A stretch of DNA of 64,000 bases from Trypanosoma brucei (GCA_000002445.1 CP000068.1:1120001-1184000), one strand, 5' to 3'. Shown: positions 4,571-23,022, counted from the first letter of the stretch. Notes: generated by a model from the sequence alone, not told the origin. Numbers and translations are program-made.

Positions 4571-5192
4571 ACATCTGCATTTTCTGGTCTAGGAACGAAC
4601 GAAAAGCTCTCTTTCGGTAACCGCTGTTGTGTTGGAGGAAGTACGAGGAAGATGACTGAGTGGATTCCCCTTGAGATTTGCCCCTCCTCGCTTACCTATT
4701 TCACATCCTTATTGGTTCGCTTATTCCTGGTTGTGGGCTTCAGCACTGAGGATTAGCGAGGGAGGGTTTTGTTTGGCTACTTTTCAAATTTTGGTCCGCG
4801 TACCCCTAACCCGCCATACTTGTTAATTCTGTGCTTACACTCACATCTGGTGTCTTCCATCTGTCGTACCCCTCAGTTTCTTCTTTACCCTGTGTCCTCT
4901 TTCTGCGTGTTCACGTTTACGTTCATACACGCACACGCCTGGTTTGTGAAAGGTTTCTCTCCGCTACGGCTTGTGCGCTCACTTGTGTTTTCTGCCTCAT
5001 TAACCATTTGTGCTGTCACTGTCGTGACGTGGAGCGAGTGACGACAATTGCTGTGGTACTTTGAATTATTATTATTATTATCACTCGCTTGAGTCGGTCA
5101 GAAGTGAGGAAGTAGGAAAGAAGAGGTCAAGTTGAGGGGTTACTTACCCAAAGGCTGTGTAAGGAAACCGAGCGGCTTTTGTATCTCTCAAC

Positions 5193-8039
5193 ATGCCTAA
5201 ACGTGAAAGGGAAGACAGTAAGGACAGCTGCAGCGGTGATACTAGTTGCTCAACCGATAGCAGCACGAGTGACTCGAGCTCTTCATGTTCGATTTTCTCT
5301 TCTTCTAGCGGCAGTGCGAAAAGAAGAAGCAAAAAGGCGTCTTTTGAAGTCCATAAGATCGACAACGGCAACAGCGGCGACACCACTAGTAAAAGCAACA
5401 CATCTCCTAGACCAAATGATGGTGCGGTCAAGTTGGATGTTAGTGCAGTGCTGCGTGCGGAGCTGCAACCCAAACTTACTGAAACGCTGGGGGATCATGC
5501 GTTAGAGCCCGTATATGGTATCAAAGATGAAAATAATGGTAACAGTGGCCGTGCTGTATACGAGGACGGTGGTGGCATGCAACATGAAGGATACGGTAAT
5601 ATATCAAGCGATAATGACTCTCTTGATGACAGGTTCGGAACATCCGCATCCACTTCGAGTACCGACGCTGATGACGAAGCCGTTGAAGACTTCCGGGAGA
5701 GACTTTTGGCGCACGCGCAGGTGACCAGTGCGGCCAAAAAAGAGCACAGCACATCAATTGAAAGTGAAGGTCTGCTAGGTAGCGGACTAAATCCCGCCCG
5801 AGCACTGGAGCACTTGCGAAAGGCATTGCTCAAGCCAGTTTCTTCCACGGCACTCGCAGTTGTAAGCGCCACTGATGAATCCCATGACCTCATGGATGCC
5901 GTGGTTTCAGCGAAACTCCCACCTCCACCTGCCGATGACGTAAAACGGTTGAGGAAACTTCATTATGTGGACCATAGCACTATTGAATATCCACCAATAC
6001 AGAAAGAGTTTTACGTTTCTCCACCTGATGTCAGGGGCCTCGACGCAGGGGAGCTAAAAGAGTTGCTGAAAGAACTTGACGGTGCCAAGGTACGTGGTCG
6101 TGATCCACCACGACCGATGCGTAGTTGGACGGGATCCGGTCTTGCGGACTCTGTACTTGAGGCGCTCGCGGAAGGGGGATTTCAGCAACCATTTGCCGTG
6201 CAATCGTTAGGTGCTCCTGTTCTTATGAGTGGCCGTGACCTGCTTGTTGTCGCCAAAACGGGATCCGGAAAAACGCTGTCGTATCTGCTCCCACTCATCC
6301 GGCATTGCATGGGTCAGAGAGCATGTAAAAAGGGAGAGGGCCCAATCACCCTTGTTTTGGTTCCTACGCACGAACTTGGTTGCCAGATTGTGAGGGTTGC
6401 GGAGAAGCTCTGCTCTGCAGCTCACCTACGACTCGTTGCTTCGTACGGATTGGTTCCCCTTTCTGATAACATAAAGCAGTGTCGTGCGGGTTGCGAGGTG
6501 ATGGTCTCAACACCGGGTCGTCTACTCGATCTTCTTACAGTTGGTGGCGGGGGTGTGCTTTCCCTCAGGTTTGTTTCTTTCGTTGTTGTGGATGAGGCTG
6601 ATCGCATGTTTGATAGTGGTTTTGCAGAGCATGTGGAAGCTTTTTTGAAGAATATCCGTCCGGACCGTCAACTGGCGATGTTTAGCGCCACCATGCCGAA
6701 AGAACTGAAAAAGGTAATTTGTCGCCATTTGCATGACCCAATAGAAATTACGGTGGGTGGAAAACCAACGCCGGCTTCTAATGTGGAGCAGCGTTTCTTT
6801 TTCTTCGACGAAGAGCTTTACGATGTGGACGTGGAAAGCCGCAGTGAAGACAAAAAGTTTTTGAAGCTTTTGCAAATTCTTGGTGAGGAGGGTGGAAACG
6901 GAGAACATCTTATTCTTATATTTACACAGCAGAAAAAGGAATGTGATGAACTATTCGCGCGACTCTCCGCCTGTGGTTACAACAAGCGCATTGCCGTATT
7001 ATACAGTGGCATGGATCCCATCGATCGTGAGTTTGCTCTCGAGTACTTTTCTCCTGGTAATCAGTTCATTCTGATAGCAACGGGTGTAGCTGAGCGTGGA
7101 CTGGACATACCTTACCTTGAACTAGTCATTAACTACACCCTTCCAGACCATTATGAGGCTTATGTTCACCGGATCGGTCGCACAGGTAGAGCAGGGAGGA
7201 AAGGTAAGGCTGTCAGTTTCTTCACACGAGGAAAAGATGATGAACTGGCGGCTGACCTCTGTGAAGGTCTTGAGCGGGCAGAACAACAGGTATCGGAAGA
7301 ACTCTACGAGCGGGCTACAAAGGTGCGTGAGTTACGCAAGGGTGGAACTGCACGACACAATGCTCTCTTTCACCGTGGTTATATGCGGGCGAAAAAGCAG
7401 CGGTTCACCAACCGTGACCAAAAGGAGCAGTTCAAAACGGCACTGCGTGCGGCAGGATTGGAGGACGATATGCCAACGGGGTCGGATTCGGACTCCGGTT
7501 TCAGTAGTGGTGATGATAGCGATGTGGGTGTTAAGATTAAGGCTGTCGAAGAGGACAACGCTGACGACAGTTGCGACGCCGAACTTTCCAGTGCACTGAC
7601 CATCCATAAAGGTGATGGTGCGCTCACCGTCAGCTCCGCTCAACTGCAAAAGCAGAAAGAGTCGTTGGAGGCGGCGTTGGCGTACGCCAGAAAGACAACG
7701 GAGATGGCCGTTAATCCAGCATCGAGGAACGTGCGCTTTGAGGCAGAATATCCTATCAATGACCTGCCAAATGTTGTGCGTTTGCGACTGCAGAACTCGG
7801 CAGTGCTGCGGTCGGTGGCGGAAGAAAGCAATTCAACAATAGTCCGTAAAGGTGTGTTCTATGATAAAAGTTTAAAGCACTCGCATCGCCTACGCGACGG
7901 TGTTCGGCCACTTTATCTTTTGATTATAGGCAAAACTGCTGAATCTGTGCGGGACACAGTGAAGAAGCTTAATAGCGTCAAGGAAGAGGCTCAAAGTCGT
8001 CTTCAGCAAAAAGTGTCGTCGGTTGGGGCACAGCTTTAG
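5193..8039 (+). CDS. DEAD-box ATP-dependent RNA helicase, Prp5/DDX46-like (spliceosomal)
   Basis: Motif I AKTGSGKT, Ia PTHELGCQ, Ib TPGRL, II VVDEAD, III SAT, VI HRIGRTGRAGRKGKAVSF. N-terminal Ser/Asp-rich acidic region. C-terminal EYPINDLPNVVRLRL...GVFYDKS...RPLYLLIIG resembles the DDX46/Prp5 C-terminal module. Confidence 0.85.
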   Translation: MPKREREDSKDSCSGDTSCSTDSSTSDSSSSCSIFSSSSGSAKRRSKKASFEVHKIDNGNSGDTTSKSNTSPRPNDGAVKLDVSAVLRAELQPKLTETLGDHALEPVYGIKDENNGNSGRAVYEDGGGMQHEGYGNISSDNDSLDDRFGTSASTSSTDADDEAVEDFRERLLAHAQVTSAAKKEHSTSIESEGLLGSGLNPARALEHLRKALLKPVSSTALAVVSATDESHDLMDAVVSAKLPPPPADDVKRLRKLHYVDHSTIEYPPIQKEFYVSPPDVRGLDAGELKELLKELDGAKVRGRDPPRPMRSWTGSGLADSVLEALAEGGFQQPFAVQSLGAPVLMSGRDLLVVAKTGSGKTLSYLLPLIRHCMGQRACKKGEGPITLVLVPTHELGCQIVRVAEKLCSAAHLRLVASYGLVPLSDNIKQCRAGCEVMVSTPGRLLDLLTVGGGGVLSLRFVSFVVVDEADRMFDSGFAEHVEAFLKNIRPDRQLAMFSATMPKELKKVICRHLHDPIEITVGGKPTPASNVEQRFFFFDEELYDVDVESRSEDKKFLKLLQILGEEGGNGEHLILIFTQQKKECDELFARLSACGYNKRIAVLYSGMDPIDREFALEYFSPGNQFILIATGVAERGLDIPYLELVINYTLPDHYEAYVHRIGRTGRAGRKGKAVSFFTRGKDDELAADLCEGLERAEQQVSEELYERATKVRELRKGGTARHNALFHRGYMRAKKQRFTNRDQKEQFKTALRAAGLEDDMPTGSDSDSGFSSGDDSDVGVKIKAVEEDNADDSCDAELSSALTIHKGDGALTVSSAQLQKQKESLEAALAYARKTTEMAVNPASRNVRFEAEYPINDLPNVVRLRLQNSAVLRSVAEESNSTIVRKGVFYDKSLKHSHRLRDGVRPLYLLIIGKTAESVRDTVKKLNSVKEEAQSRLQQKVSSVGAQL

Positions 8040-8665
8040 TTGTGACACTGCTACTGCACAACTGAAGGGATCACCATGGGTGGAGGGGGGGAAAGGGGAA
8101 ACGCTACAGGAGAAGATAATGTGGAACACTACGGCATGCTGTGCAACATGTTGTGGGGGAACACGCAACTTTTGGTGCAGTCTGTGCGGAATCGTCCATG
8201 AGTGTGCATTGGATTGAATCTCAATGAGCTTCGATCACACTCGGTTCTTATTCATTTACGAGCAGGCATGTGAAGACTGCCTCCGGCTGTTTTGGCACCT
8301 GCAGCATGTCTAACGGGAAACCAAATGATGACAATGGAGAACGGCTTGTGCATTTTTTTTTTTTTTGCTATTCATGCATGTGTGTCATCCTTATTGTTTG
8401 TCAGTGTAAGTGGTCTCCACCTTTCCCCTTTCTGACGCATGTCTTTTTTTTTTCTGTTTTCTTCCGTTGTGGCTTCGCGCGAAGCATACCTCCTCAACCA
8501 TAGTTGTTTGCAGCTCTCATAAAAGTCTCTCTGTGCATTTATATTAAGTGGTGCAACATAACTCGAAGCAAGTTTGTAAAGGTGTGGGGCAGGCATACGC
8601 AGGTTCACCATAATCGGGAATATAAAAGGCCCTGTATTCAATAATAAAAAGGGTTACGTGCCTAA

Positions 8666-11600
8666 ATGACGGATGCAACTAAGATGGCTGGCCAACTTCT
8701 GTTCCAGAACACGTTGGCAGAGGTAGTGCGTAAGTTGCGCTCCAGTAACGAGAGCGAAGCGGAGGTGATTGAGCAATGTATTGCCGACATCAAGAGTGAG
8801 GTCACTTCCACTGTTCAGAGCGTTAAGGTCACCGCAGTGTTGAAAGCCGTCTACTTTTCCATGCTCGGCTACAGTGCAACATATGCTGCTTTCAACATCA
8901 TTGAGGTTATGGCGGACAAGATGTTCGGATACAAACGTATCGGATATATGGCGGCATGTTTAACATTCACTCCGAAAACAGAGGTTCTCCCGTTGCTTAC
9001 AGCTCTGTTGAAACGCGATCTTTCCAGCACTAACCAGTACGAGGTGGGTTTTGCGCTTTACTGCATTTCCACTGTTTCCTCTCCGGACCTCGCTAGGGAC
9101 CTTGTAGTGGATGTGGTGAACTTATTGAGCCATCCGCGTAATTACGTTCGCAAAAAGGCGGTTCTTAGCCTCTACCGCATTTTTTTTGAGTACCCCGAAT
9201 CACTGAGACCAACCTACCCTCGGCTAAAGGAAAAGCTCGACAGTAGCAGTGAGCGGTGTGACAATGACCCGGCTGTGAGAGGTGCTCTGGTGTGCGTTTT
9301 GTGTGAACTGGCCAGACGTAATCCGGCCAGCTTCTTAGGTCTAGCGGTTCCTTTCTTTTCCATGTTGTCAACGATACAGAGCAATTGGACATTGATCAAG
9401 ATAATAAAGGTTTTTGGTTACTTCGCTCCTCTTGAGCCTCGGCTGGGGAAGAAGCTTGTGGATCCGATTATTCGTATTGTTCAGACAACAGGTGCAAAGT
9501 CTGTACGTTACGAGTGCATTCTTGCTGTGGCCAACGGAATGAGCAAAACACCCTCACTAACGAAGATAGTCGCAGAGGAGCTTAGAGTTTTTGTAGAGGA
9601 TAGCGATCAAAATTTGAAGTATTTGGGCCTTGACGCCATGTCTCGCATGGTTCGTGACAATGCAAAGCTGTTGGGCGGTCATCGTGATGTAGTTCTAGCA
9701 TGCCTTGATGACATTGACACAACTATCCGTCGTAAGGCCCTTGAGGTTCTGAGTGGCCTTGTGACAAAAAGAAACTTCGTGTCAACCATCAATAACATGA
9801 TGCATCGGTGTGTGCGGCTGCCTCCTGATGAGGAATGGTCTAACCGCGTATTAGCGACAGTAATCGAAGTTGCTCAAACTGACGATTATAGTTACGTGCA
9901 GGACTTTGAGTGGTACGTAAAGATCCTACTAGACATCAGCCTGGTGAACCTCTCCACCTACCAACACGGTGCCCTGGTACAGAAGGAACTTGTGACTGTA
10001 CTGACAAGAGTGAACGCGGTACGGCAGTTTGGTGTTAACGAGCTCTCTCAGCTACTGTCGAACACTAACTTACTTAAAAGTGATCCATCCCGTTCCTCGC
10101 AGTGGGAAGTGTTGAAGGCGGCGGCCTTTCTCTGTGGAGAGTATCCTTATTGGCTTCAAGACAAACGGCGCACATGCGAACTATTGTTGAGCGAGCGGAT
10201 TTCTTTACTAAAACCAGAAGTGCAAGTTGTTTGCGTCACTGCGGTGGGGAAGATTGTAGCATACATGCACAAGCCATGCCAGCGACACCTCGTTTTGGTG
10301 AATGGCGAGGAGGAGATACCATTACCAGAGGATTCCCTAACATTCGAGGAGTTGCGCGCTTCCATTCTCCAAACAGAAGCCATCACTGACAGCAACGGGA
10401 CGGCGAAGGTGGTTGGAGCCACCGGCTCCATCTCTAATCGGCACGATGTGGAAAGAAAAAATCTATTAGGCCTCCAGTTATTCCGTCACAGCGTCCATCC
10501 AGACGTTCAGGAGCGGGCAAGCATGATTTTGTATCAGCTCAATGTCGACCCCGATATTGGCCCTCTACTATATGAACAGGAACTCCTTCCGGTTGCCATC
10601 GGTGCACAGGAGGCCGTGGAGCCACCGGAAGGATTGAATCTTGATGAACCATTTTGCAGTCACTTACCAGCGGGGTTGTCTCCATCTGACAGCGAAGAAG
10701 ATGGAGCGGAAAATGATGAAGACCTTTACTATGTGGACGGCTATGATGCTATTGTTGCCCGCGAGCAGCGGCGGCGGGAAGAGGCCCGACGTGGCGAGGT
10801 TGCTCCGTTTTATATTAAAAATGATGCCTTATCACGGGATCAACTTTCAGAAGAGTTGCATTCCGCTGTCAGTGCTGCCCCGGCTCCAAAGACGTCAACG
10901 TCGTTTTACGTACCACAGAAATCTCAGGTAATCAATCGGTATCTGTCACGTCCCAAGAATTATGATGCTGCGGCTCATGGGCAGCGACGAATTCAGGATG
11001 AGGACGTGGATGAGGCAACGAAGAAGTTTCGAAACGTAGATGTCACACGGTCACTAGCACCAGATGAAAGATTGCCGGAGCCTATCCCGTATGGGAGGCT
11101 TCAACAAAGTGCTACCACCGAGGGTACTGCGGCGGCAGCGGCTGCTGCAGCTGCTTTGGATTTCATGGTTGACGAATCGTTTGATCCCCTCGTACTTTTG
11201 GAGGAAAAATACCTGCGCGTGACCGCATTTGTTCTTTCCTGTCGCGTGCGGAAGGCGGGCACCCAAATTACGATGGCCGTAGAGATATCAAACCTTGCAA
11301 GCAGCAGCAGCATGCGCAACGTTTCGCTGCGTTTCCAACCTAATAATGACAACTATACGACGGAGCGAGTGCGGCTGGAAGCAGACAAATCTCAAGAGGC
11401 CATCACAGGTGCTAATCGTCCAAAAACTGGTAGGGGTGACAATAAGAACGCTGTTGGTGAAGGTGGTGACGGTGACAAGGAAGTGGAGGAAAGTGACAGA
11501 AGCATATTCGTTTCAAAATGCATGAAGGGGACTACGACATTGCGGACGAAGATGCTTCTGACGTTCTCTGGATCACTTCCGCCTTCACTTACCGAACCCC

Positions 11601-12049
11601 TACTGTTTAGTTTGCTGTACACGCGAGAGAAGAAACCAACTGAGTCATTACTACCAATGCCCTTGAGTTATCGATACTTTGCCAAGTCCCATGTGGACAC
11701 GACTTCAGTAGAGTTTATGCAGACAATAATGGCAAGACATCTCTCTGAATCCCCTGTGCTTACGTGTTTTGTGGCTGTGGCCGCAAGTTGTGTTCCACTT
11801 GTACTTCCCGCTATACAACAACAACTGCGGTTGAGGCCAGTTGATATCTTTAAAGATGCGGCTTCCTTCTATAGTGTACTGCAATCCCGAAAATCCGCAG
11901 CTAACCACGCACATGTCGCCGTGGTGCTGCTAGAAGATGAGTTAGAGGGAGAAAAGGGCATCAGTATTGCTGTGAAGTCGGAACACACTTCTTTAGCGGA
12001 GCTTCTGGCCCAAGAAATCGCAAAACTCTTGATGACGGCCACGTCGTAG
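8666..12049 (+). CDS. AP-3 adaptor complex delta subunit (delta-adaptin)
   Basis: The N-terminal 300 aa align closely with the AP3D1 adaptin trunk: AAFNIIEVM, KRIGYMAA, RKKAVLSLYRIFFEYPESLRPTYPRLKEKL, NWTLIKIIKVFG, PLEPRLGKKL. A long acidic/disordered hinge and ear follow. An alternative start is Met at 8684. Confidence 0.9.
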   Translation: MTDATKMAGQLLFQNTLAEVVRKLRSSNESEAEVIEQCIADIKSEVTSTVQSVKVTAVLKAVYFSMLGYSATYAAFNIIEVMADKMFGYKRIGYMAACLTFTPKTEVLPLLTALLKRDLSSTNQYEVGFALYCISTVSSPDLARDLVVDVVNLLSHPRNYVRKKAVLSLYRIFFEYPESLRPTYPRLKEKLDSSSERCDNDPAVRGALVCVLCELARRNPASFLGLAVPFFSMLSTIQSNWTLIKIIKVFGYFAPLEPRLGKKLVDPIIRIVQTTGAKSVRYECILAVANGMSKTPSLTKIVAEELRVFVEDSDQNLKYLGLDAMSRMVRDNAKLLGGHRDVVLACLDDIDTTIRRKALEVLSGLVTKRNFVSTINNMMHRCVRLPPDEEWSNRVLATVIEVAQTDDYSYVQDFEWYVKILLDISLVNLSTYQHGALVQKELVTVLTRVNAVRQFGVNELSQLLSNTNLLKSDPSRSSQWEVLKAAAFLCGEYPYWLQDKRRTCELLLSERISLLKPEVQVVCVTAVGKIVAYMHKPCQRHLVLVNGEEEIPLPEDSLTFEELRASILQTEAITDSNGTAKVVGATGSISNRHDVERKNLLGLQLFRHSVHPDVQERASMILYQLNVDPDIGPLLYEQELLPVAIGAQEAVEPPEGLNLDEPFCSHLPAGLSPSDSEEDGAENDEDLYYVDGYDAIVAREQRRREEARRGEVAPFYIKNDALSRDQLSEELHSAVSAAPAPKTSTSFYVPQKSQVINRYLSRPKNYDAAAHGQRRIQDEDVDEATKKFRNVDVTRSLAPDERLPEPIPYGRLQQSATTEGTAAAAAAAAALDFMVDESFDPLVLLEEKYLRVTAFVLSCRVRKAGTQITMAVEISNLASSSSMRNVSLRFQPNNDNYTTERVRLEADKSQEAITGANRPKTGRGDNKNAVGEGGDGDKEVEESDRSIFVSKCMKGTTTLRTKMLLTFSGSLPPSLTEPLLFSLLYTREKKPTESLLPMPLSYRYFAKSHVDTTSVEFMQTIMARHLSESPVLTCFVAVAASCVPLVLPAIQQQLRLRPVDIFKDAASFYSVLQSRKSAANHAHVAVVLLEDELEGEKGISIAVKSEHTSLAELLAQEIAKLLMTATS

Positions 12050-13397
12050 TGGGTATTCCCACTCAAGCAAGACTTTGGTTGTTCCCTCTGATGGTGGCGG
12101 TGCTTATCTTTCTTGTTATTGGTGAAGTTGAAAAGAAAAATGGATGGAGGCATGTTGGCATGATTTTTTTTGTTTCTTGATATTACCCCGCTTGTGATAC
12201 TCGAGGTATTTGGTTTCAACTCCTCGTTCGCACACACCCTTTATTTTGCGATGGGAGTAACTGCTGTGTTTCTATCTTGGCTCATTCTTTTGTGTGTTTC
12301 TCCTTTTTCTGACGGATGGCCGCTGTAGTCATCTCATTACATCTTTTAACAAGTTTTTCATTATGTGTGGTGCTTGATTTGCTGATGCGTAAATTGTGAG
12401 TATTTTTTCTCGCATCGTTCCTTTTGGGTCTCACAAATAACGGCAAAAATCGATTGCACACGCAACAACAGCCGGTGTCTGATCCATTATTTGAGTTTCG
12501 AACCTCATCCGGCACCGGGCGTAACACTTAACGCTTTTTTGGTTGGTTGTTTGGTTGGTTCTGAGCGTGTCTGCGGAAGCGGAGGCGGGATGGTGAAATA
12601 TAAACCTCAAGTTCCCATGTGTGATACTGCTTCTTCCACTTACTCCCCGTTTATATTTGTTTTAATTTACCTTACTTTACCTTATGAATTCATTTCTTTT
12701 TTCTTTTTTTCCTTTGTTTCTTTTTTTTTTTAAAGCTTCATAGTGCTCTGAGGTGTGTACAGGAAGAAGACCCGTGAGGTTCTTCACACAATACGCCGAA
12801 AGTAATCCTTATTAATTTTTTTGTTTTGCCATTGCACTGTAGTTGCAACGGTGCTGAAAAGGCAGTAGGAGAGGAGCTATTCGGTGGTTTAGCCACTTTG
12901 ATTCTTCTACCATTTCCTTATACGGATTTTGCCCAGTGAAGAGGCGCGAAAACAAAGGGGGAAAAAAAGACAACAAGTAAAACGATTAGGAACGAAACGG
13001 TCCGTCAGGACGAAAGGAGAAAAGGAAATAAAAGTGAGAAAGAAATAGGGAAACAATTCAAGGAGAGTGTACGAAAGGAAACTCGCGGAAGAGTTTGTCA
13101 CCATTATATCTATTTTTATACAAAACAAACGAAGAAAGGGTGAAAATTCACCTGAAACGAAGGAAAACTGCAATTACAGGACAAGAAGAACTGTCCAGAA
13201 GTAGAGAGAAAGGAAAGGAAAAGGGGAAGTATCATATATATATCATTTCACAGCTTCTCTTCTTTTCCGTGAACCAACGGAAGTGAACGTTTGGGGAAAG
13301 CAAAAAAAAAAAAGAAGGGAGTGTAAGGGATCCCCCTTCAAAGAAAAAAAAAGGAAAAAAGAAAAGGGATCCAAAGTGTAGTGTTCACACATTTGTA

Positions 13398-14735
13398 ATG
13401 CAGTCGTCAAGTTTTGCTGGAACGGGGGTGTTTCCGCCCCCGCCAGCTTTCTTGCGAGGCAACAACTCCATTAGGACAGGAAAGCGAGTGGGGCGCCGTC
13501 ATCATCATTTCACTGATGAAAACGTTGTGGACCTTCGTAGTATTGAAACTGGAGTGGAATGCAGCACTCGTATGGGACACAGTCGCAGTAACACAGCAGC
13601 TGAAGATCCTCCATTGCGTGCGCGCCGTCGTATCCCACATGGCAGTAACCCACCAACAAAGATATTAGACTTTCTTTTCTTGGGTGGCGTTAGTGATGCA
13701 ACAAATCCTGAGTTCCTCCGACGTGAAAATATCGTGACCATTCTGAACGTCTCACGAGAAGAATATTGGTCTGTGGACAAGGGAATTACGATACATCCTT
13801 TTCCTCTAGAGGACAACGCGGAGGAAAACATCCGGAAGTTCTTCTCACACACCTACAGGCTGCTGGAGGCTGCGCGCAGTGCGTATTACAGCTCAAAAAG
13901 GCAATGCGAGCGGTCAACCTCAACAAATGACGCCGCCACCAATTCAAATCTCGATTACCACAACGGTAACGAGAACGGTAGCGGCTGTAGTGCAGGGACT
14001 AATGTTGTTAATGGTTACTGTGAGGGCAGTAACGGTGGTACTAGTAGTAATATTAACAACTCCATGAATGAAGCAACTGACAATTGTGCGATTAGTGCTT
14101 CTCCTGCCCGGCCGCCTTGTGTGCTCGTGCATTGCCGGTACGGCATCAGCCGCTCCGTAACGATTGTGCTTGCTTATCTCATGCGTCGTAACGGATGGTC
14201 CCTTAACGATGCTCTGCAATACGTCATGTGCCGACGACCGCATGTGGAACCCAACGTTGGTTTCATGAATGTTTTGCTTTCGTTTCAGCGGGATATGGAT
14301 CCACAGAAACGAGACATCCAACGAAACTTGCTTCCTATTGTAGTTCGGAACCTTCCCCCTAATACATCGTCGTCTGCCGTGCATAAATTCTTTGAAGACC
14401 GCGTTGGTTGTGTCCATAAAGTGGCCACTTTTCCATCTCGTGTTGCCGCAGGAAATTCGACTCGAGAAAATACTGATGGTAACAGCAAGGATATTAGTGA
14501 TGAGAGCAGCACCAGTGATTGTAATGATGAAATCAGTTCAGGTGCGATGTGGCTTGTGGTGTTTGCAACGCCGGACTCCGTACATTTGGCCCATCGTTTA
14601 TATCATAAGCAACCGGATTTCTTTGCGCCACTCGGTGTTAGTGAAGGGCGCCGCGTGAAATTAACAGCTCTGAGCAAACTTCATCGATCCCCACGTCCCA
14701 TCACTGGAGGGGAGTCGTTGGCTAATGAATCCTGA
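13398..14735 (+). CDS. Dual-specificity protein phosphatase with a low-complexity insert and a C-terminal RRM-like domain
   Basis: Active-site P-loop VHCRYGISRS (HCx5R-S/T). General-acid Asp in PFPLEDN. FLFLGG at the start of the catalytic domain. The C-terminal region has RNP2-like IVVRNLP and RNP1-like MWLVVFAT. Confidence 0.8.
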   Translation: MQSSSFAGTGVFPPPPAFLRGNNSIRTGKRVGRRHHHFTDENVVDLRSIETGVECSTRMGHSRSNTAAEDPPLRARRRIPHGSNPPTKILDFLFLGGVSDATNPEFLRRENIVTILNVSREEYWSVDKGITIHPFPLEDNAEENIRKFFSHTYRLLEAARSAYYSSKRQCERSTSTNDAATNSNLDYHNGNENGSGCSAGTNVVNGYCEGSNGGTSSNINNSMNEATDNCAISASPARPPCVLVHCRYGISRSVTIVLAYLMRRNGWSLNDALQYVMCRRPHVEPNVGFMNVLLSFQRDMDPQKRDIQRNLLPIVVRNLPPNTSSSAVHKFFEDRVGCVHKVATFPSRVAAGNSTRENTDGNSKDISDESSTSDCNDEISSGAMWLVVFATPDSVHLAHRLYHKQPDFFAPLGVSEGRRVKLTALSKLHRSPRPITGGESLANES

Positions 14736-15635
14736 ATTGGAAAAAAAAGAAAAAACTCGATACGAAACGAAAAGAGAAAGGAGGGAGGGGAAAAAAAAAA
14801 GAATATCACAAGGAAAGCGCTAACGGTGGAGTGGACGGTGATCACTGAATTTATAACATGATGCAAGCGGTGTATCACCCGCAAGCGGCAAAATTGACTG
14901 TGCGCTGAGAAAATCTTTCCTTTTCTTTTTCTTTTTCTTTTTTCGTATTTATTTCTGTTGTACTTCAACTCTAAGGGATATGGGGGTTATGTGTGTGTAT
15001 GTGTCTATGCGTGTGCGCGCGAAAATAGGGAAAAACTATAAAGGAGCAAATAGCATATGATCCACAGAAAAGAGGAAACGCGGGTTCAAAAGCGAGGAGA
15101 AGCGTGTGGGCAAGCAACCATTTGAAAGAAACAAAGTACGACAAGAAAAAATAAAAATAGAAACAAAATAAAATGGCCAAATAAGGGGGAGGAGGGAAAT
15201 CAGGGGAAATTAAATTTTATTTATCCCATGAAAAATTTGCGTGTCTATGAGACCGAAGTACATGCAAGTTGTTGTTGCTGTTGCTCTTTTTTTTTCTTTT
15301 TTTTGAAAACATGAGTGAATTATGAATGGAGAAAAGTAGGCGCAAGATGCGTGTGGCTGATTCGTGCCGACGTTTGTATTTTGTGTATCTTTACACCCGT
15401 TTCATATTTTAATGTTTGAAAATTAATTCTGTTTTCAGTTGATGAGGTGTCGTCTGTGTGGGCGTATATACCTTTCTCTTATCTGTTTTTCTTTTTTTTT
15501 TTTGAGAACAAAATGAAATGGAAAGATGAAACGAAAAAAAAAGAATTTTACAAACGGACGACAAAACAAACAACAGAACAACAATGGCAGCTGTTCACAA
15601 ACGCAAAAAAACACGATAAATAAACGGATGTTTAA

Positions 15636-15661
15636 GTGTGTGTGTGTGTGTGAGAGAGAGA
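15636..15661. repeat. (TG)n(AG)n compound microsatellite
   Basis: gtgtgtgtgtgtgtgtgtgagagagagag read directly. Confidence 0.9.
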
Positions 15662-17744
15662 GGTGGGGAAATGGAGAAAGTTAACGTGAGACGTAAAAAT
15701 GTAAATGGGGTGATGTCGAAGGGGATTATGAACGCCTCCATGCGTGGCTTTATTATTATTATTATTTATTTACTTATTTATTTTAGTTGTAATGACTGAG
15801 GGAATGGAGATAAATTTCACACCAGAGGATGATGGGAATATGAAGGAAAATAAATAAATAAATGAAAATATAAAGGGGGAAATGTGCAGCGGAATGGTTA
15901 ATTTGGATGGAAGAAATCGTAAAATGATAAAGAGAAAGAGAGAGAGAGAAAAGAAAACTTGATTAAAATAAATAAATGGAGCGAAACAAATAAATGATGT
16001 GCAATTCGAAATCCTCTACCTTCTCATTGTGTGAATTCCTTTTTCTCAACCATCTTCTTATTCACGTTTCTACCCCCTTTTTTTTTCATTGTTTTGTTTT
16101 TTCGTTTGTTCCTGTTCCTTTTTTGCCTTTTTTTTGTTTTCTGCTTTCTTGTATAAATGTCCGAAAGGCGGACAGGTGAGGGATGAGTAATGAAAACAAA
16201 AGGTAAACAAAACAACTTTATCATCATTACAATGTCATAAACACCAAAAATAAAATAAAATAAAAAAACACGCACAAACACAAATATTCAAGCGGGCAAT
16301 TAACCACGTGGAGTGATAAGGGCACATATAAAGATAGAAATATATATATATATATTTCTTTATTTATGTCTCTTTGTATTTGCGTGTGTGTGTTTTTTTT
16401 TGTTTTACTCGTGAGGTTTATATGCCCTTTCTTTTTTTTCTTTTCCGTCAGGTGATGGAAAACTCCTCCTGTGTTTATTATTGCTTCAATGTTGTGGTGT
16501 AAACATATTCGATATGTAAAAGCAAATACGTTCAGGTGTTTTCTTTTTCCCTCCTTCTTCTTTTTTCTTTCTGTCCATTTTCTTTTTTCTTCTTCTTCTT
16601 CTTTATATTTTTCTCATTTTTTTCATAGCAATGAAAATGATATGCGTGATGAAGAACATACAGTGCGAGAAGATGAAATAAGAAAAGAAAGGAAATGAAA
16701 AGAAAAGAAATGAGAGAAAATGTTCGGAAGTAAAAAAAAAACAACAAAAAATATTTTGTTTGTTTGTTTATTCCCCCACTCACAAACTGACGTTTGTCGG
16801 ACTTTCAATTTCCCCCATTTTTTCTTATTTTACGTGTGTTGCTGAACTCATATTTGTGATTTTTTATTATTACCATCACCATTACCATTTTTCTTTTATG
16901 TATGTTCGTTCCCGTATTTTATCCCCCATCTCCTTTCTTCTTTTTTCTTTTTTTCACTCCGTTGCGTTTTCTAATTTCTTTTTCTTTTTTAGGTCCGCTG
17001 CCGTCGGTGTTGTTTACTCGATGCTGCACCTCCGTTTCACAACACTTTTCTTCTTTCTGGGATGTCTCACCTTTTCCCTTTTTTTTTTATTTTAATAAAA
17101 AAAAAATAAAAATATCCCGCACTCCTTCCAATGGTTCCATTGATGTCTCGTTTATTTTTAAAGCGGGGCGTTTATTATTATTGTTATTATTATTATTATC
17201 TTTGATTTAAAAATTTTACTCATCTTTTTTGACAGCTTGGACTCCTCATTTACTCACACGTGCGTGTCCTTTTTGTTTTTTTTCTCCCTTCTTATTGTTC
17301 AATTTGATTTTTTCAATCTCTCTACGTTTTTGCTTTATTTTCCTTTTATTTTTATTTTACTGATCTTTGTTTTTCGGATTGTGTTGGTGGGAAGTGGTTT
17401 TTGTTTCTTTTTTTTTTTTTGTACGTCTGTTCTTGTAGTATTTCCCTCTCTTCTTCTTTTTTTTTCTTATTTGGTTTTACCATCAATTAATTATTTACTT
17501 CGGTCATTAATTCACTCCAACAATTATCCTTTCCTTCCTTCCTTCCTTCTTTGGTACCTTTTCTTTTTACCGTATTTTCATTTAATTGTGTTTTTTTTTT
17601 TGGAAAGGCCGAAGATTTTTTTTTTTTCCGCTCCCTCTTTTTTTTTTTTAGTTGGGTTTGTTCCGTGACAGAAATCTTTTTTTTTCTTTTTCTTCCCCTC
17701 CCCTTCTTTTGACCTAACAATAAAGAAAAGGAAAAAATAAAAAT

Positions 17745-17786
17745 TATATATATATTTATATATTTATATATTTATATATTTATATG
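17745..17786. repeat. tandem 8-mer (TATATTTA)n, about 5 copies
   Basis: tatatatttatatatttatatatttatatatttatatgg read directly. Confidence 0.85.
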
Positions 17787-20138
17787 GTAAAGATGAATAA
17801 AATAAAATGAAATGAAAACAAAAAAAAGCAGAATGAAAAGTGATTCCACCTTTTACTTTCTTTCCTCTACAACATTTTTTTTAAAAAAATGGTAAAATAG
17901 CATTGTAAAAACGATAACATTTGATATTATTAATGTTGTTATCACTTTTAACATTATTATTATTATTATTATTTTCATTAGTGATATGAAATGATAAAGT
18001 AATGATTAATGCCATTACAAATTATCAGTTGTTATTGTTTTTCAAAAAAAAAGTCTTTTTTTTTCCTTTCCCTCCTTTTTTTTAAAAAATAATTATTTCC
18101 ATACAAATAATATTGTTTTGTTGTTTATTTATTTATGTGCATGTGCGTGTTTGTGTGTATTAATATCATTTAATTTATGATGCACCAGGGGAGGGGAAAT
18201 AACGTTTTTTTTTTTTAGTTGGATTTGTGCTGCGCCTCTCTCGAATTCACGCCGCCGCTATCATTTAATGTACGGCAGAAAAAATATATAAATAAATATA
18301 TATGAATATATAATTATATACCAGAAAAGAGGGGGAAAATTTTAAAAAAATGTTTATGGGTGAATGAATCGTTAATCAAAAGCACACAAAAAACAAGGCA
18401 TGATTAAGAGAGATTATATATATAATATATATATAATCATCAGTACTTGGTCACTTTTCTTTTTTTCTTTTTTATTCATTATGATTAATATTGTTTAATA
18501 TCTGTTTGTTTTGTTGTTGTTTTTTTTTTTCTTGCGTGCGCGTATGTGCGGCAAATGAAGAAATTAAAATAACCATCGTGAGAGATGAGAATTAAAGAAG
18601 GACAAAAAGACGAAAGAAAGTAAAGGAAAAATACATTTGTTTTTTTTTTATTAACAAAGGAAAAAAAAATCCTCGCGTTCATTTATTATTTAGTACGTGA
18701 ATAAACTCAAAGGTACCAATTCTTCGTGATGTATTTCTATATTTATTTCCTCCTTTTTTTTTCTATGCCTTTTTGTTTTTTCCAAAACTTCACGTGACCT
18801 TCTTTTTGTTTTTTTTGCTCTCTTTTCTGTCTTTTTTTTTTTTTTTGAAAAAAAAAACTCCCTTTTATTTATTTCTTTGGAAATGAAATGAAGAAATAAA
18901 ATAAATACATCAACAAATAAATAAATTAAATTGTGGATTAAATTGCTCAAGAGTGTAAAAGCGTCGGGAGCGCAATTATGTGTGCAGCTGAACGCAAGCA
19001 GGTTTGAAATGGAAAAAAAAAGACAGAAAAGAGTAGTAAATAAAATAAATAATGAAACTGAAGTAAAAGTGAACTGAAGTGAAAATGAAATGAAATGATT
19101 AGCCATTGGAACTTATAAAGAGGAGAAAAAAGAAAAAAAGGAGGGAAAGAAGGAAAAGAAAAAAAAGAAGTTTCCATTATATTGAATTATGCGAGAATAA
19201 ACTTGCAATTTTTATTTATGTATTTAAGTGCGTGTGTTGGTGGATTTTAAAATGTACGGCTGCGAAGCGGGTGGAAAACGAGCGGAAAGCAATAAATATT
19301 AAAGAAAAGAAAAGAGAGAGAAAAAAGAAGAGAGCACCGATTTCTCAAATAAATAAATAAATAAATAAATATATATATGTTTACCAAAATATGCACGAGA
19401 GAAAAGACATTTATAAGCGATTCCCCCAATTTAAATAAAAAAGGAAAATAGAAGGAGAAACTATCAACACACACACACGCACAGAGAGAGAGAGAGAAAG
19501 AGAGAGCAACAAACAAAGAAAGAAAATGTATATAATATTATTACTGTCGTTAGGAATGGAAGGATACAATTTTTTTAAAAATTTTTTTGTAAGTCTTTAT
19601 GTGTTTTAATGTTCCATTACGTGTTCTTGTTTGTCATATTTCCCCCCCCTCTTCCTCTTCTTACTTTTGGATTATTCTTTTTTGTATGATGAAAGGAGTA
19701 AAATACAAGTAGGAAGAGAAAAAAAATAAAAAAAACAAATAGAAGAAGAGAGGAAGTGAAATAATGGAAGCAGTAAAAAAAGAAAAGAAAAGAAAAGAAA
19801 AAAATTAAAATTCTTTTTCTGTTACTGTTTTTCCCTTTTCCGTTTTTTTTTTAATATGGACTCTCTCATCATTATCGCCTTCCCTCCTTTCCTTCTATAT
19901 TGATTTTTTTTGTACAATTCTATTGTTCTTCGTCTTCCTAAATATATTCTTACTTTTCTTTACTTTTTTACTTTTATGTTGTTCCATGCTCTTTTTTTTC
20001 CCCCTTTTTTCGTTTCATTCCACTGTTTCATTGTGCCGTGTCATATCACTTTTGCAATTTATATAAATATATATGAAATGATGGTTGCACGAGGGGATCT
20101 GCAATGGTAGTAACAATAAGTGTTTTTTTGTTTTTTTT

Positions 20139-20182
20139 TAAATAAATAAATAAATAAATAAATATATATATATATATATATG
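20139..20182. repeat. (AAAT)n followed by (AT)n microsatellite
   Basis: aaataaataaataaataaataaatatatatatatatatatatg. A similar (AAAT)n(AT)n block occurs at about 19341-19378. Confidence 0.9.
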
Positions 20183-21450
20183 AAAGAATAAACTTGATGA
20201 AGGAAAAACTAGTTTTTTTTTGTGTGTGTGTGAGTGTGCGTGTTATGGTCAAATGAGTGTGAAAGGGAGGGGGAGGAGGAAATATTTTTAAATTACACTC
20301 GAGTGGATTTATAAATCAACAAATAAGTGGAGTTATTTGAAGAAGTGAACACTAAAAGAAAACGCGAGGATGTGGTGTGTATTGCGTCTTAACATAAATA
20401 TATGTGATTGCATGTTTTGTGTTTTTGTGTTTTTGTGTGTACATGTGTGTTTATATGCTTATCTCCTGTAAGCACAGAAAACAACGAATTGCAGAATGAT
20501 AAGTTTGTTCATTTATCTACTCGTTCATAACTGGGGGTCATGGCTACAAATATAAACATTTTATATTTTTGTTTGTTTGTATTTATACACATGTATGCAT
20601 TTTAGCGTAAATGTGTTTTGGCGCGTGCGCGTATCCATGAGGGGAAAATGTACACCAAAACATTTATAGTTAGAGCGAGTGAAAAGAAAAATTAGTAGAA
20701 AATTACAAAAATAAGGGAACATATATAAAAAAATAAAGATATATGTAGTAATAATAATTATTATTATTATATTGCTTTATCATTATATTATTTAATATTA
20801 TATTGTTATGAAGAGTAAAATCTTTTCAAATTATTTTTCTGAAGTGAAGAAGGGTCAAAAAGCAAACGATGCAACCCATTAAACACCATCGGGGAATTAA
20901 CCATTCCTTGTTTCTCTTTTTTTTGTTTTGTCTAGTAGGGAGTTGTTGGTGGTGAACGTTTCGAAACAAACCATATCTTTTTTTTTCTTTTTTTACTTTA
21001 TGTCCCACTTTACCTTTTTTTTTTGTTTTCTTCTCTCTGGTTTGTTACTCACCTGGCAATATGTGATGCACAGCTCAGCCGTGTTTTCACGCACAACTCC
21101 TTTTTTTTAAAAAAAAAAATGCATTCATTTGTATGAAGATCGCTGCTGATTTGTTGCTTCACTTTACGGGGGCATCAGCCTCATTTTATGTTACTCCTTT
21201 TTATTTTTTTTTTTATTATTCCAAATATGTCACATTGCTCTTCTTCCCTTTTTTTTTTTCTTCGTGTGTGTGTATGTTTGTTTCGAATTAAAATTTACCT
21301 TTTGTTACGTGTGACATTTCTCGTATTCTTCCAACTCTGGCGGAAGGAAGAGGAAACTGACGAAAAAAAAAAAAAGTGAAACCTCCCTCCCGTAGGTGCC
21401 TTATAGCGCTTGGGTGTGGAAATAGAAATACCGATAATTAGATTTTTAGA

Positions 21451-22686
21451 ATGGAAAAAGTAACGCCAACTTCCCTCGCCAACGCATTCCTCGCTACCGC
21501 TGGCATCAGTGCGCCGATGTCATCTTCTGGGATTCGTGGCTTGTCATTGAGGTCAGTTCGCGAAACTGTTCACTGCGCAACGACACAAACCACTTCAGCT
21601 CCACCTCCGCCTGCCAACTGCCAGCAACATCAGCTCCTTAACACAACGGAAGATAAATGCAACGCGATATTTGCAGAAGTGGAGCTCCTCAGCAAGTGGT
21701 TGCAACACGCCGTGGAGAGTCGAGCACATGTGGAACGTGAGGCCTACGCACTGCTGCAGCAGGCAGATGTAAAAATACAGCATTTGGAGGATACGGTACG
21801 TCAGAAAGAAATGGAATTGCTTTATATGAGGGGGGCAATGGAAAGTTTGAGGACGCGTGTGGAGTTTTATGAGTGCAGGGAAAGGAGAATTGAAGGTGAC
21901 GATGATGATGCTAATTTTCCTCTTCGACGTGAAGCAGATTTCAAGGGTGCTGCGGTGAGAAAGGTGGTTATAATGGGGGAGAATAACACAAACGATAGCT
22001 ATTGCAGCAACCGTATGGGTAGAGGAAATGGTGTAATGTCCCCTGCTGATTTTACCGTGGACTCGACGGAACAATTAAATGCAGGCAAATGCGTCGACTT
22101 GGGTACCACCGCCACAACTTGCAACAGTAACGGAGTTGATAATGCCAGTGTATCTTCTCCCGCAGAAACTGGAGTTGGAGGCCGGTCTCGTGTAGGTCAT
22201 AGCGCACTAAGTTGGGTGAGATATCTTTTAGAGCGCTGCGTTTCCAATAGCGGCAAAGACGGTGCGAGTGAAGGTGCGGCGTCGATGAAGAAGAAAGGAG
22301 AAGGAAATGACCAACTGGCCGATGCGCTAACGATGCTGACAACTTTACAGTGTCAGTATGCTGACCCTAACGGTGATCTTGTGATGATGAACTCCCTTTG
22401 CACAAAGTTCTCGAATTCCATCGTAGCCGTGGCAGAGGAGCTAAACACAGCGCTTCAGATACCGTTGAAGCGGGCCTCAAACACAACTGATTCTCTGCAA
22501 ATATCGCAAGCTGCTAAAGTTGTTGAACACCCCGAGTCCGCGGCAGAGGCGTTACCATCGTCGAATCAGGAGCCGATAATGCAATGTAGAAAATCAGTTG
22601 TGGAGGAAAATCTTCAGCTCCTGCAAAGTTTGATGGCAGTGGAATCATCATCACGGGAGGCGTGGAGTACCCTCCAGAAATATTGA
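21451..22686 (+). CDS. Hypothetical protein with N-terminal coiled-coil segment
   Basis: 411-aa ORF starting with ATG, with coding-like composition. A heptad-like region lies at LLSKWLQHAVESRAHVEREAYALLQQADVKIQHLEDTVRQKEMELLYMRGAMESLRTRVEFYE. No recognisable catalytic domain. Confidence 0.5.
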   Translation: MEKVTPTSLANAFLATAGISAPMSSSGIRGLSLRSVRETVHCATTQTTSAPPPPANCQQHQLLNTTEDKCNAIFAEVELLSKWLQHAVESRAHVEREAYALLQQADVKIQHLEDTVRQKEMELLYMRGAMESLRTRVEFYECRERRIEGDDDDANFPLRREADFKGAAVRKVVIMGENNTNDSYCSNRMGRGNGVMSPADFTVDSTEQLNAGKCVDLGTTATTCNSNGVDNASVSSPAETGVGGRSRVGHSALSWVRYLLERCVSNSGKDGASEGAASMKKKGEGNDQLADALTMLTTLQCQYADPNGDLVMMNSLCTKFSNSIVAVAEELNTALQIPLKRASNTTDSLQISQAAKVVEHPESAAEALPSSNQEPIMQCRKSVVEENLQLLQSLMAVESSSREAWSTLQKY

Positions 22687-23000
22687 AGCAAATGTGGAGA
22701 TGTGTTTGTCTCTAGTCGCTGGATTCATGGAGAAAGTTTCATGTGCCGCTTGTCGTCATTGCTTTTAGCAGTGATAATAAGGGGCAGGTGTTTGTTTGGG
22801 CATAGAGCTTGGGCACATGGCGTTTTCTGGGGTTTAACACCGTGAGAAAATGGCAAATGCGGCGGGTAATTTTGCTTTATTCTATTTTGCTTCACTTTTC
22901 GATACGTCGCGTGGAGGGCCCCCCCCCCTAACCGGTAGCCGTGTAAAACCAACAAGTAGCGATCCGCATCACCCAATACGCATTCACGCATATATGTATT

Positions 23001-23022
23001 TTTCATATATATATATATATAT
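23001..23022. repeat. (TA)n microsatellite
   Basis: atatatatatatatatatatat read directly. Confidence 0.9.

What the first reader, a model, noticed from the sequence alone, without database searches (positions are those of the whole stretch)
13398..14735. Dual-specificity phosphatase fused to an RRM-like C-terminal module, with a long low-complexity insert in the catalytic domain
The catalytic signature is intact (VHCRYGISRS; Asp in PLEDN). Between the general-acid loop and the P-loop there is a roughly 90-aa Asn/Ser/Gly-rich insert (STNDAATNSNLDYHNGNENGSGCSAGTNVVNGYCEGSNGGTSSNINNSMNEATDN). After the phosphatase domain there is a region with RNP2-like (IVVRNLPP) and RNP1-like (MWLVVFATP) strands about 90 residues apart, the spacing expected for an RRM. 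A phosphatase coupled to an RNA-recognition-like fold is not a standard DUSP architecture. It would be of interest in organisms that regulate genes post-transcriptionally.
Basis: inference. Interest (0 to 1): 0.5.

Follow-up and report, generated by a model that had tools for sequence, protein, structure and literature searches.

The report
Trypanosome phosphatase fused to RRM domain
This Trypanosoma brucei gene (Tb927.5.3620) encodes an apparently active MAP-kinase-phosphatase-like enzyme joined to a divergent RNA-recognition-motif (RRM) fold; the pairing is conserved in every relative found, named or unnamed, and was absent from the literature I could search, but whether the RRM binds RNA is untested.

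The parts
13398..14735 (+). [quoted passage not shown]
13398..13655 (+). N-terminal region, aa 1-86. It is basic (net +6) and predicted disordered
   Evidence: pLDDT below 50 for aa 1-82; composition
13521..13544 (+). Conserved linear motif NVVDLRSI (aa 42-49), downstream of the basic cluster GKRVGRRHHHF. Candidate docking motif (inference)
   Evidence: V44, D45 and L46 at least 90% conserved in 19 orthologues; a strict pattern is found in 24 of 37 family members
13656..13877 (+). DSP catalytic domain, first part (aa 87-160), including the general-acid loop
   Evidence: Aligns to DUSP10 residues 5-80; Pfam DSPc
13812..13814 (+). Codon of D139, the general-acid Asp (PLEDN)
   Evidence: Aligned to the Asp of DUSP10 'PATDS'; invariant in 19 orthologues
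13878..14120 (+). Lineage-specific Asn/Ser/Gly-rich insert (aa 161-241), between the helix after the acid loop and the P-loop strand
   Evidence: It is long in T. brucei, T. congolense and T. vivax, shorter in the T. theileri group, and absent in T. cruzi and Leishmania
14121..14300 (+). DSP catalytic domain, second part (aa 242-301)
   Evidence: Aligns to DUSP10 residues 86-145
14130..14156 (+). P-loop HCRYGISRS (aa 245-253), with catalytic C246 and R252
14301..14330 (+). Short conserved helix joining the DSP domain to the RRM (aa 302-311; R305 conserved in 36 of 37)
   Evidence: Helix 302-309, then b1 from 312; conservation
14331..14432 (+). RRM b1-a1-b2 (aa 312-345). The RNP2 position is IVVRNL (314-319)
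   Evidence: F332, G337, V339 and V342 are conserved in 37 of 37
14433..14540 (+). Disordered acidic Ser-rich insertion in the b2-b3 loop (aa 346-381, net charge -5). Its length varies from about 25 to about 125 aa between species
14541..14681 (+). RRM b3-a2-b4 plus a short helix (aa 382-428). The RNP1 position is GAMWLVVF (382-389). Conserved G417-[KR]418-x-[ILV]420-[KR]421 and K427
14682..14735 (+). C-terminal disordered tail (aa 429-445) and stop codon

Best explanation
Tb927.5.3620 is a two-domain enzyme. The first domain is a catalytically competent, MKP-like cysteine-based dual-specificity protein phosphatase (nucleophile C246, R252, general acid D139). A short conserved helix, with almost no flexible linker, joins it to a divergent RRM-fold domain. 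I propose that the RRM is the targeting module. It would dock the phosphatase onto ribonucleoprotein particles, either by binding single-stranded RNA through a non-aromatic, hydrophobic-plus-basic sheet surface of the kind I recall for PTB RRMs, or by binding a protein of the RNP. The catalytic domain would then dephosphorylate RNP-associated phosphoproteins such as RNA-binding proteins, translation factors or RNP-associated kinases. The N-terminal basic cluster with the VVDLR motif may be a second docking element. The Asn/Ser/Gly insert and the acidic b2-b3 loop are disordered, lineage-variable spacers. What is shown: the domain identities, catalytic residue conservation, RRM fold and homology, and co-inheritance of the two domains. 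What is inferred: catalytic activity, RNP targeting and the substrate class. My confidence in the structural part is about 0.9. My confidence in the RNP-targeting mechanism is about 0.4.
Against: The three classical RNA-stacking positions are V315, M384 and L386 in T. brucei, and they are aliphatic in most of the family. No member reaches Pfam's RRM_1 gathering score; the best is 19.5 bits against 20.7. The b2-b3 loop next to the putative RNA face is acidic in T. brucei, net -5. There is no experimental evidence of RNA association: the gene is absent from the supplements of the tethering screen, and I could not reach the T. brucei mRNA-bound proteome tables. The inter-domain geometry could not be inspected, because the tools return no coordinates or PAE.
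Confidence: 0.42

Rival explanations
1. The RRM fold is a pure protein-protein module (a pseudo-RRM). It would either recruit the substrate, for example a MAP kinase, taking the place of the rhodanese/CH2 docking domain that this MKP-like enzyme lacks, or pack on the catalytic domain as an intramolecular regulator. RNA would not be involved.
For: The aromatic RNP residues are missing in most of the family, and the sheet face is conserved as aliphatic hydrophobic residues (L384, L386, F/Y388), which would normally be buried in an interface. The connection to the DSP domain is short and conserved, suggesting a fixed composite unit. The catalytic domain is MKP-like but has no rhodanese domain: Pfam finds none and the N-terminus is disordered. 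From general knowledge, many RRMs with degenerate RNP motifs bind proteins (Y14-Mago, UHMs, eIF3b).
Against: Conserved basic residues surround the sheet and the core is net basic. Leishmaniinae have aromatic residues at two RNP positions. From general knowledge, PTB-type RRMs bind RNA without RNP aromatics, and PTBP2 is among the profile hits. The UHM hallmark, an R-x-F motif in the a2-b4 loop, is absent; the loop reads G-[KR]-x-[ILV], as in canonical RRMs.
Confidence: 0.35
2. The enzyme acts on RNA itself. It would be a DUSP11/PIR1-like or capping-enzyme-like cysteine phosphatase that removes 5' phosphates from RNA held by the RRM.
For: From general knowledge, some cysteine phosphatases of the DSP superfamily are RNA 5'-tri/diphosphatases (DUSP11/PIR1, baculovirus BVP, metazoan capping enzyme). 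A covalently linked RRM would be a natural substrate-binding domain.
Against: The general-acid Asp is invariant. From general knowledge, the RNA-triphosphatase branch lacks this residue. The P-loop and the extended motif VLVHCxxGxSRSxTIVLAYLM are of the MKP/DSP protein-phosphatase type. The best sequence and structure matches are MKPs, and no DUSP11 or capping enzyme appears among the 60 listed sequence hits or the 50 listed structure hits.
Confidence: 0.07
3. The C-terminal region is not an RRM relative at all. It would be a generic ferredoxin-like fold or a prediction artefact, and the RNP-like strings would be chance.
For: Single-sequence searches are not significant. Foldseek E-values for the module are only 0.01-0.08 and include other ferredoxin-like enzymes. 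The alignment depth for AlphaFold2 was only 18 sequences.
Confidence: 0.03

Closest known systems
MAP kinase phosphatase-type DUSPs (DUSP10/MKP5, DUSP7, DUSP5, DUSP9, DUSP4, DUSP1)
   Same: The catalytic domain fold and sequence match: PDB phmmer E=2.5e-21 to DUSP10 and Foldseek TM of about 0.8. Also shared are the HCxxGxSRS P-loop, the extended xTIVxAYLM motif and a general-acid Asp about 107 residues upstream (about 30 once the insert is discounted).
   Different: There is no N-terminal rhodanese/CH2 docking domain. An 81-aa disordered insert precedes the P-loop strand. A C-terminal RRM is present. MAPK substrates are not shown.
Kinetoplastid atypical or kinetoplastid-specific DSPs (LRR-DSP, kinatase, ANK-DSP, kDSP class; Brenchley et al. 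2007, PMC2175518)
   Same: The gene is listed there as a kDSP (Tb927.5.3620; L. major LmjF08.0100). The paper stresses unusual accessory domains in this group.
   Different: The paper lists only IPR000340 and IPR000387 for this gene and does not mention an RRM anywhere: 0 occurrences in the text and no IPR000504 in the tables.
RRMs without RNP aromatics that still bind RNA (PTB/PTBP2 RRMs), and protein-binding pseudo-RRMs (UHM, xRRM)
   Different: The b2-b3 loop carries a 25-125-aa disordered insert. There is no UHM R-x-F motif. Membership of any of these subtypes was not established.
Yvh1/DUSP12 (a DSP with a C-terminal zinc-binding domain that docks on the pre-60S ribosome)
   Same: The logic is the same: an N-terminal DSP domain plus a C-terminal module that takes it to an RNP. 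Yvh1 is a moderate sequence hit (E=1.1e-13, chain 6n8m_Y in a pre-60S structure). JGI's automatic name for two family members is 'dual specificity phosphatase 12'.
   Different: The C-terminal domain here is an RRM fold, not a Cys/His zinc-binding domain. The label is an automatic name, not orthology.
DUSP11/PIR1 (a DSP-family RNA 5'-phosphatase that associates with RNPs) - from general knowledge
   Same: It is a cysteine phosphatase linked to RNA biology.
   Different: As I recall it (not checked here), DUSP11 has no RRM and belongs to the RNA-triphosphatase branch. The present enzyme keeps the general acid and resembles MKPs.

Membership tests
Cysteine-based dual-specificity phosphatases (Pfam DSPc, PF00782) | Match to the family model above the curated threshold | tested here: met
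   94.2 bits against a cut-off of 33.5, E=7.4e-27, in two stretches because of the insert
Cysteine-based dual-specificity phosphatases (Pfam DSPc, PF00782) | HCX5R(S/T) P-loop with the catalytic Cys and Arg | tested here: met
   HCRYGISRS at aa 245-253; the motif is present in all 37 family members
Cysteine-based dual-specificity phosphatases (Pfam DSPc, PF00782) | General-acid Asp on the loop upstream of the P-loop | tested here: met
   D139 aligns with the Asp of DUSP10 'PATDS' and is invariant in 19 orthologues
Cysteine-based dual-specificity phosphatases (Pfam DSPc, PF00782) | Phosphatase activity on phospho-Ser/Thr/Tyr | not testable with these tools
   Needs an enzyme assay
MAP kinase phosphatases (MKP subfamily) | Catalytic domain closest to MKPs | tested here: met
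   The top PDB sequence and structure hits are DUSP10, DUSP7, DUSP5, DUSP9, DUSP4 and DUSP1
MAP kinase phosphatases (MKP subfamily) | N-terminal rhodanese/CH2 domain carrying the kinase-interaction motif | tested here: not met
   There is no Rhodanese match and aa 1-82 are predicted disordered. Only a short conserved basic-plus-VVDLR motif is present
MAP kinase phosphatases (MKP subfamily) | Dephosphorylates the TxY loop of MAP kinases | not testable with these tools
   Needs biochemistry or substrate trapping
RNA recognition motif (RRM; Pfam RRM_1 and clan) | b1-a1-b2-b3-a2-b4 topology with a four-stranded sheet packed on two helices | tested here: met
   AlphaFold2 strands at aa 312-319, 339-345, 383-389 and 421-424, with helices at 325-335 and 392-412; core pLDDT 78-95
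RNA recognition motif (RRM; Pfam RRM_1 and clan) | Closest structural neighbours are RRMs | tested here: met
RNA recognition motif (RRM; Pfam RRM_1 and clan) | Sequence match to the family model above the curated threshold | tested here: not met
   RRM_1 scores 12-14 bits for T. brucei. The best orthologue scores 19.5 bits against a cut-off of 20.7. Eight of 18 orthologues give weak hits
RNA recognition motif (RRM; Pfam RRM_1 and clan) | Significant profile-level homology to bona fide RRMs | tested here: met
   hhalign 96.0%, E=4e-9, 69 columns, against 10 RRMs that all pass Pfam RRM_1. Family profile against the PDB: nucleolin 3.8e-7, SPEN 2.9e-4, PTBP2 1.5e-3
RNA recognition motif (RRM; Pfam RRM_1 and clan) | Aromatic residues at RNP2 position 2 and RNP1 positions 3 and 5 | tested here: not met
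   T. brucei has V315, M384 and L386. Most of the family is aliphatic at these positions. Only Leishmaniinae have Phe at RNP2-2 and RNP1-5
RNA recognition motif (RRM; Pfam RRM_1 and clan) | Binds RNA | not testable with these tools
   No experimental data were found
U2AF homology motif (UHM, protein-binding RRM) | R-x-F motif in the a2-b4 loop and an acidic helix a1 | tested here: not met
   The loop reads G417-[KR]418-x-[ILV]420 and contains no R-x-F; a1 is not markedly acidic
DUSP11/capping-enzyme-type RNA 5'-phosphatases | Cysteine phosphatase lacking the general-acid Asp, with closest relatives among RNA triphosphatases | tested here: not met
   The Asp is invariant. None of the listed best hits is DUSP11 or a capping enzyme. 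Activity on RNA was not tested

The most novel reading that the evidence does not exclude
A family found in every kinetoplastid sampled here in which an active MKP-like phosphatase is hard-wired to a divergent RRM. The RRM would place the enzyme on mRNAs or mRNPs, directly coupling phospho-signalling to post-transcriptional gene control in organisms that lack gene-specific transcriptional regulation. This would be a phosphatase architecture with no described counterpart in other eukaryotes.
Probability: 0.3. Interest if true: 0.7.

Novelty: new variant of a known kind. Interest (0 to 1): 0.5.

Why it matters
Trypanosomatids control nearly all protein-coding gene expression after transcription, through RNA-binding proteins that are heavily phosphorylated. 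Very few of the phosphatases acting on them are known. A phosphatase that carries its own RRM is an obvious candidate for writing or erasing phospho-marks directly on mRNPs. It has no equivalent in the host, and its catalytic domain belongs to the MKP class, for which the PDB already holds MKP5 complexes with allosteric inhibitors. The result also shows that a conserved domain has escaped annotation, because a long disordered loop insertion keeps it under Pfam's threshold. Other 'kinetoplastid-specific' extensions may hide known folds in the same way.

Tried and rejected
1. Identity with the quorum-sensing 'DsPhos' of Mony et al. (Tb927.7.7160) is rejected. The window gene is Tb927.5.3620, a different kDSP.
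2. A single-sequence search of the C-terminal 145 aa against PDB sequences gave nothing meaningful. The first orthologue-only profiles gave only marginal RRM hits, E=0.02-0.06. Significance came only after adding divergent family members.
One hit, the FLYWCH zinc-finger protein P0054, is probably a low-complexity artefact of those loop columns.
I therefore could not ask whether DSP+RRM exists outside kinetoplastids in AFDB, or how UniProt annotates the orthologues.
5. Literature: Tb927.5.3620 appears in the main text of only one paper, as a microarray row. LmjF08.0100 appears only in a list. It is absent from the supplements of the tethering screen and of the TbDYRK phosphoproteome. The ZC3H28 paper has no supplements held. 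The Lueong 2016 mRNA-bound proteome paper was not in the library.
6. The UHM reading is rejected because there is no R-x-F motif. The Yvh1/DUSP12 reading, an automatic JGI name, is rejected because the C-terminal domain is an RRM fold and not a zinc-binding domain.
7. Rfam and tRNA scans of the whole window found nothing.
8. Inter-domain packing could not be assessed, because the prediction tool returns no coordinates or PAE.

Full report
**1. What is in the sequence**

Window 13398..14735 (+) is a clean ATG-to-stop ORF of 445 aa. All ORFs of at least 180 aa that have support lie on the + strand. The only two minus-strand ORFs of that size sit inside larger + strand ORFs. This layout fits a kinetoplastid polycistron. 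The protein is identical to T. brucei brucei TREU927 XP_845032.1 / Q57UA4. It differs at two residues each from the T. b. gambiense and T. equiperdum proteins. Table S1 of the TriTryp phosphatome paper gives its gene ID as Tb927.5.3620, class "kDSP", with only the phosphatase InterPro entries IPR000340 and IPR000387. It is not the quorum-sensing DsPhos, which is Tb927.7.7160.

**2. The phosphatase domain**

- Pfam DSPc matches at E=7.4e-27, 94 bits against a cut-off of 33.5.
- The best solved relatives by sequence are MKP catalytic domains. DUSP10 scores 2.5e-21, followed by DUSP7, DUSP16, DUSP6, DUSP5 and DUSP9.
- A Foldseek search with the full-length AlphaFold2 model also returns DUSP5, DUSP10, DUSP7, DUSP9, DUSP4 and DUSP1, with TM of about 0.8 normalised by target. 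No alignment exceeds 221 columns, so no solved structure spans both domains.
- Residues 87-160 align with DUSP10 residues 5-80, and residues 242-301 align with DUSP10 residues 86-145. D139 of PLEDN falls on the DUSP10 general-acid Asp.
- H245, C246, G249, S251, R252, S253 and D139 are invariant in 19 orthologues. All 37 family members examined have HCxxGxSRS.

The enzyme therefore looks catalytically competent and of the protein-phosphatase (MKP) type. It has no rhodanese domain, and residues 1-82 are predicted disordered.

**3. The insert**

Residues 161-241 (81 aa) replace a 5-residue connection in DUSP10. Asn and Ser each make up 17% of the insert, and Gly 10%. AlphaFold2 extends the preceding helix to residue 181 and gives pLDDT below 50 for 186-234. 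The insert is long in T. brucei, T. congolense and T. vivax, shorter in the T. theileri group, and absent in T. cruzi and Leishmania. Several distant family members have independent insertions at the same site, seen as split or partial DSPc matches. It is a tolerated, lineage-variable surface loop. I found no evidence of a specific function.

**4. The C-terminal module is an RRM fold**

Single-sequence evidence is weak. RRM_PARP14_3 scores E=0.006-0.024 and RRM_1 scores E=0.05-0.19, and both cover only b1-a1. Nothing meaningful comes from PDB sequences. Four stronger lines of evidence follow.

- **Conservation.** The module is conserved from Trypanosoma to Leishmania as two blocks separated by a loop of variable length.
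- **Predicted structure.** AlphaFold2 on the 18-sequence module alignment gives b1 (314-319 region), a1, b2, a disordered loop, b3, a2 and b4. Core pLDDT is 89-95. The full-length model gives the same elements.
- **Profile homology.** I excised the loop and compared the profile with ten canonical RRMs, all verified as RRM_1. hhalign gave 92%, E=5e-7. With a broader 25-sequence family profile it gave 96%, E=4e-9, over 69 columns from b1 to b4. That profile hits 44 PDB sequences at E≤1, all RRM/RNA-binding proteins except a Euglena ribosomal protein, eSEug1, whose alignment looks RRM-like but whose fold I did not check. The best are nucleolin at 3.8e-7, SPEN at 2.9e-4, PTBP2 at 1.5e-3 and NONO at 5e-3.

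No member reaches Pfam's RRM_1 gathering score; the best is 19.5 bits against 20.7. This may explain why the precomputed Pfam annotations list only PF00782.

**5. Register of the RNP motifs**

The hhalign and AlphaFold2 registers agree.

- RNP2 is I314-V-V-R-N-L319.
- RNP1 is G382-A-M-W-L-V-V-F389.
- The three positions that normally stack on RNA bases are therefore V315, M384 and L386.

Across 37 family members:

| Position | Residues |
|---|---|
| RNP2-2 | V/A/I/L; Phe only in Leishmaniinae |
| RNP1-3 | Leu in 31 |
| RNP1-5 | Leu in 21, Phe in 11 (Leishmaniinae) |
| RNP1-7 | Phe/Tyr in 31 |

Conserved basic residues lie on and around the sheet: R317 (R/K in 36 of 37), K418 (33 of 37), K421 (33 of 37) and K427 (30 of 37). 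The core has net charge +6. The T. brucei b2-b3 loop has net charge -5.

The canonical distance is about 40. The 36-aa loop insert accounts for the difference.

**6. Distribution and linkage**

A profile search of 1.84 billion representative proteins found 29 proteins at E≤0.001.

- Every full-length hit with the module has DSPc directly upstream.
- The exceptions are two fragments, two multi-RRM proteins (11 and 6 RRM_1 domains) and one FLYWCH zinc-finger protein that is probably a low-complexity artefact.
- Named members come from Trypanosoma, Leishmania, Novymonas, Leptomonas, Phytomonas and Angomonas.
- More divergent members come from metagenomes and read-archive assemblies. Their organisms are unnamed.
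- The gene order His_Phos_1, ASCH/zf-C2HC5, DEAD-box helicase, Adaptin_N, DSP-RRM is the same in the window and in an environmental contig. That contig has one extra unannotated 322-aa gene. The order from ASCH onward also holds in a second contig. These are therefore positional orthologues in kinetoplastid-like genomes.
- The DSP domain's last helix (287-299) is followed by a conserved helix at 302-309 (R305 in 36 of 37) and then immediately by b1. The two domains probably form one unit. This is an inference.

**7. Mechanism**

Shown: an intact MKP-like catalytic centre, an RRM-fold domain homologous to RRMs, and obligatory co-occurrence of the two.

Inferred, at about 0.4: the RRM targets the phosphatase to RNPs, where it dephosphorylates RNP-associated proteins. 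RNA contact would be non-canonical, through aliphatic and basic residues as I recall for PTB RRMs. Alternatively the contact could be through an RNP protein.

Rivals:
- At about 0.35, the RRM is a protein-docking or regulatory module that stands in for the missing MKP rhodanese domain.
- At about 0.07, the enzyme is a DUSP11-like RNA 5'-phosphatase. The invariant general acid and the MKP-type motif argue against this.
- At about 0.03, the resemblance to RRMs is chance.

**8. Comparison with what is known, and novelty**

The gene itself is known and annotated as a putative kDSP. I found no functional study of it or of LmjF08.0100. The phosphatome paper never mentions an RRM. No paper in the library combines "dual specificity phosphatase", "RRM domain" and "domain architecture". 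I could not check InterPro, AFDB or TriTrypDB, so a superfamily-level annotation may already exist there.

I rate it a new variant of a known kind: a DSP with an accessory domain type not previously described for DSPs, and an RRM variant with a long loop insert and non-aromatic RNP positions. Interest is 0.5. The architecture is real, ancient and suggestive in organisms that depend on post-transcriptional control. Function and RNA binding remain untested.

Noticed in passing
window 14736-21450: A 6.7-kb stretch directly downstream of the gene has no ORF of 180 aa or more and only 30.5% GC. It contains only short low-complexity tandem repeats and gives no Rfam or tRNA hit. The same gap is about 600 bp in the syntenic environmental contig L003 and about 2.2 kb in L002. 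It is therefore an expansion relative to those two contigs, possibly a very long 3'UTR or intergenic region.
   Followed up: partly
window 1610-14735; L003 37-11356; L002 1-9467: The gene order His_Phos_1, ASCH/zf-C2HC5, DEAD-box helicase with a KH domain, Adaptin_N (1127 aa), DSP-RRM is the same in the window and in divergent kinetoplastid-like contigs. L003 has one extra unannotated 322-aa gene, and L002 begins at the ASCH gene. A EukProt gene model (P0051, 1943 aa) wrongly merges the adaptin and the DSP-RRM through translated intergenic sequence.
   Followed up: yes
window 13521-13544 (aa 42-49): A conserved short linear motif, NVVDLRSI, sits in the otherwise disordered N-terminus after the basic cluster GKRVGRRHHHF. 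A strict pattern finds it in 24 of 37 family members. It resembles a basic-plus-hydrophobic docking (D-motif-like) site, but this was not tested.
   Followed up: partly
window 13878-14120, and the equivalent site in P0044, P0046, P0048, P0050, P0055, P0058 and P0061: The connection between the helix after the general-acid loop and the P-loop strand is an insertion hot spot. Unrelated low-complexity insertions of different lengths occur there in several lineages.
   Followed up: partly
Leishmaniinae orthologues (P0010-P0019, P0040): Only this clade has Phe at RNP2 position 2 (WFMRNL) and at RNP1 position 5 (LCFVFF). The RRM may therefore bind RNA differently, or bind it only, in Leishmania and its relatives.
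   Followed up: partly
window 30752-34480, 35023-36084, 21451-29759: Other genes in the window include an ERCC4-domain nuclease (1242 aa) and a PIG-H GPI-GlcNAc transferase subunit. Four ORFs of 270-809 aa gave no Pfam match at E≤1e-4.
   Followed up: no
literature on Tb927.5.3620: Its mRNA was reported 1.9-fold down after 1 h of DTT treatment (PMC2443814). A supplementary table of the RBP10 paper (PMC5568443, file 11) lists it with ratios of 1.67 and 1.82. I did not check what those columns mean.
   Followed up: no
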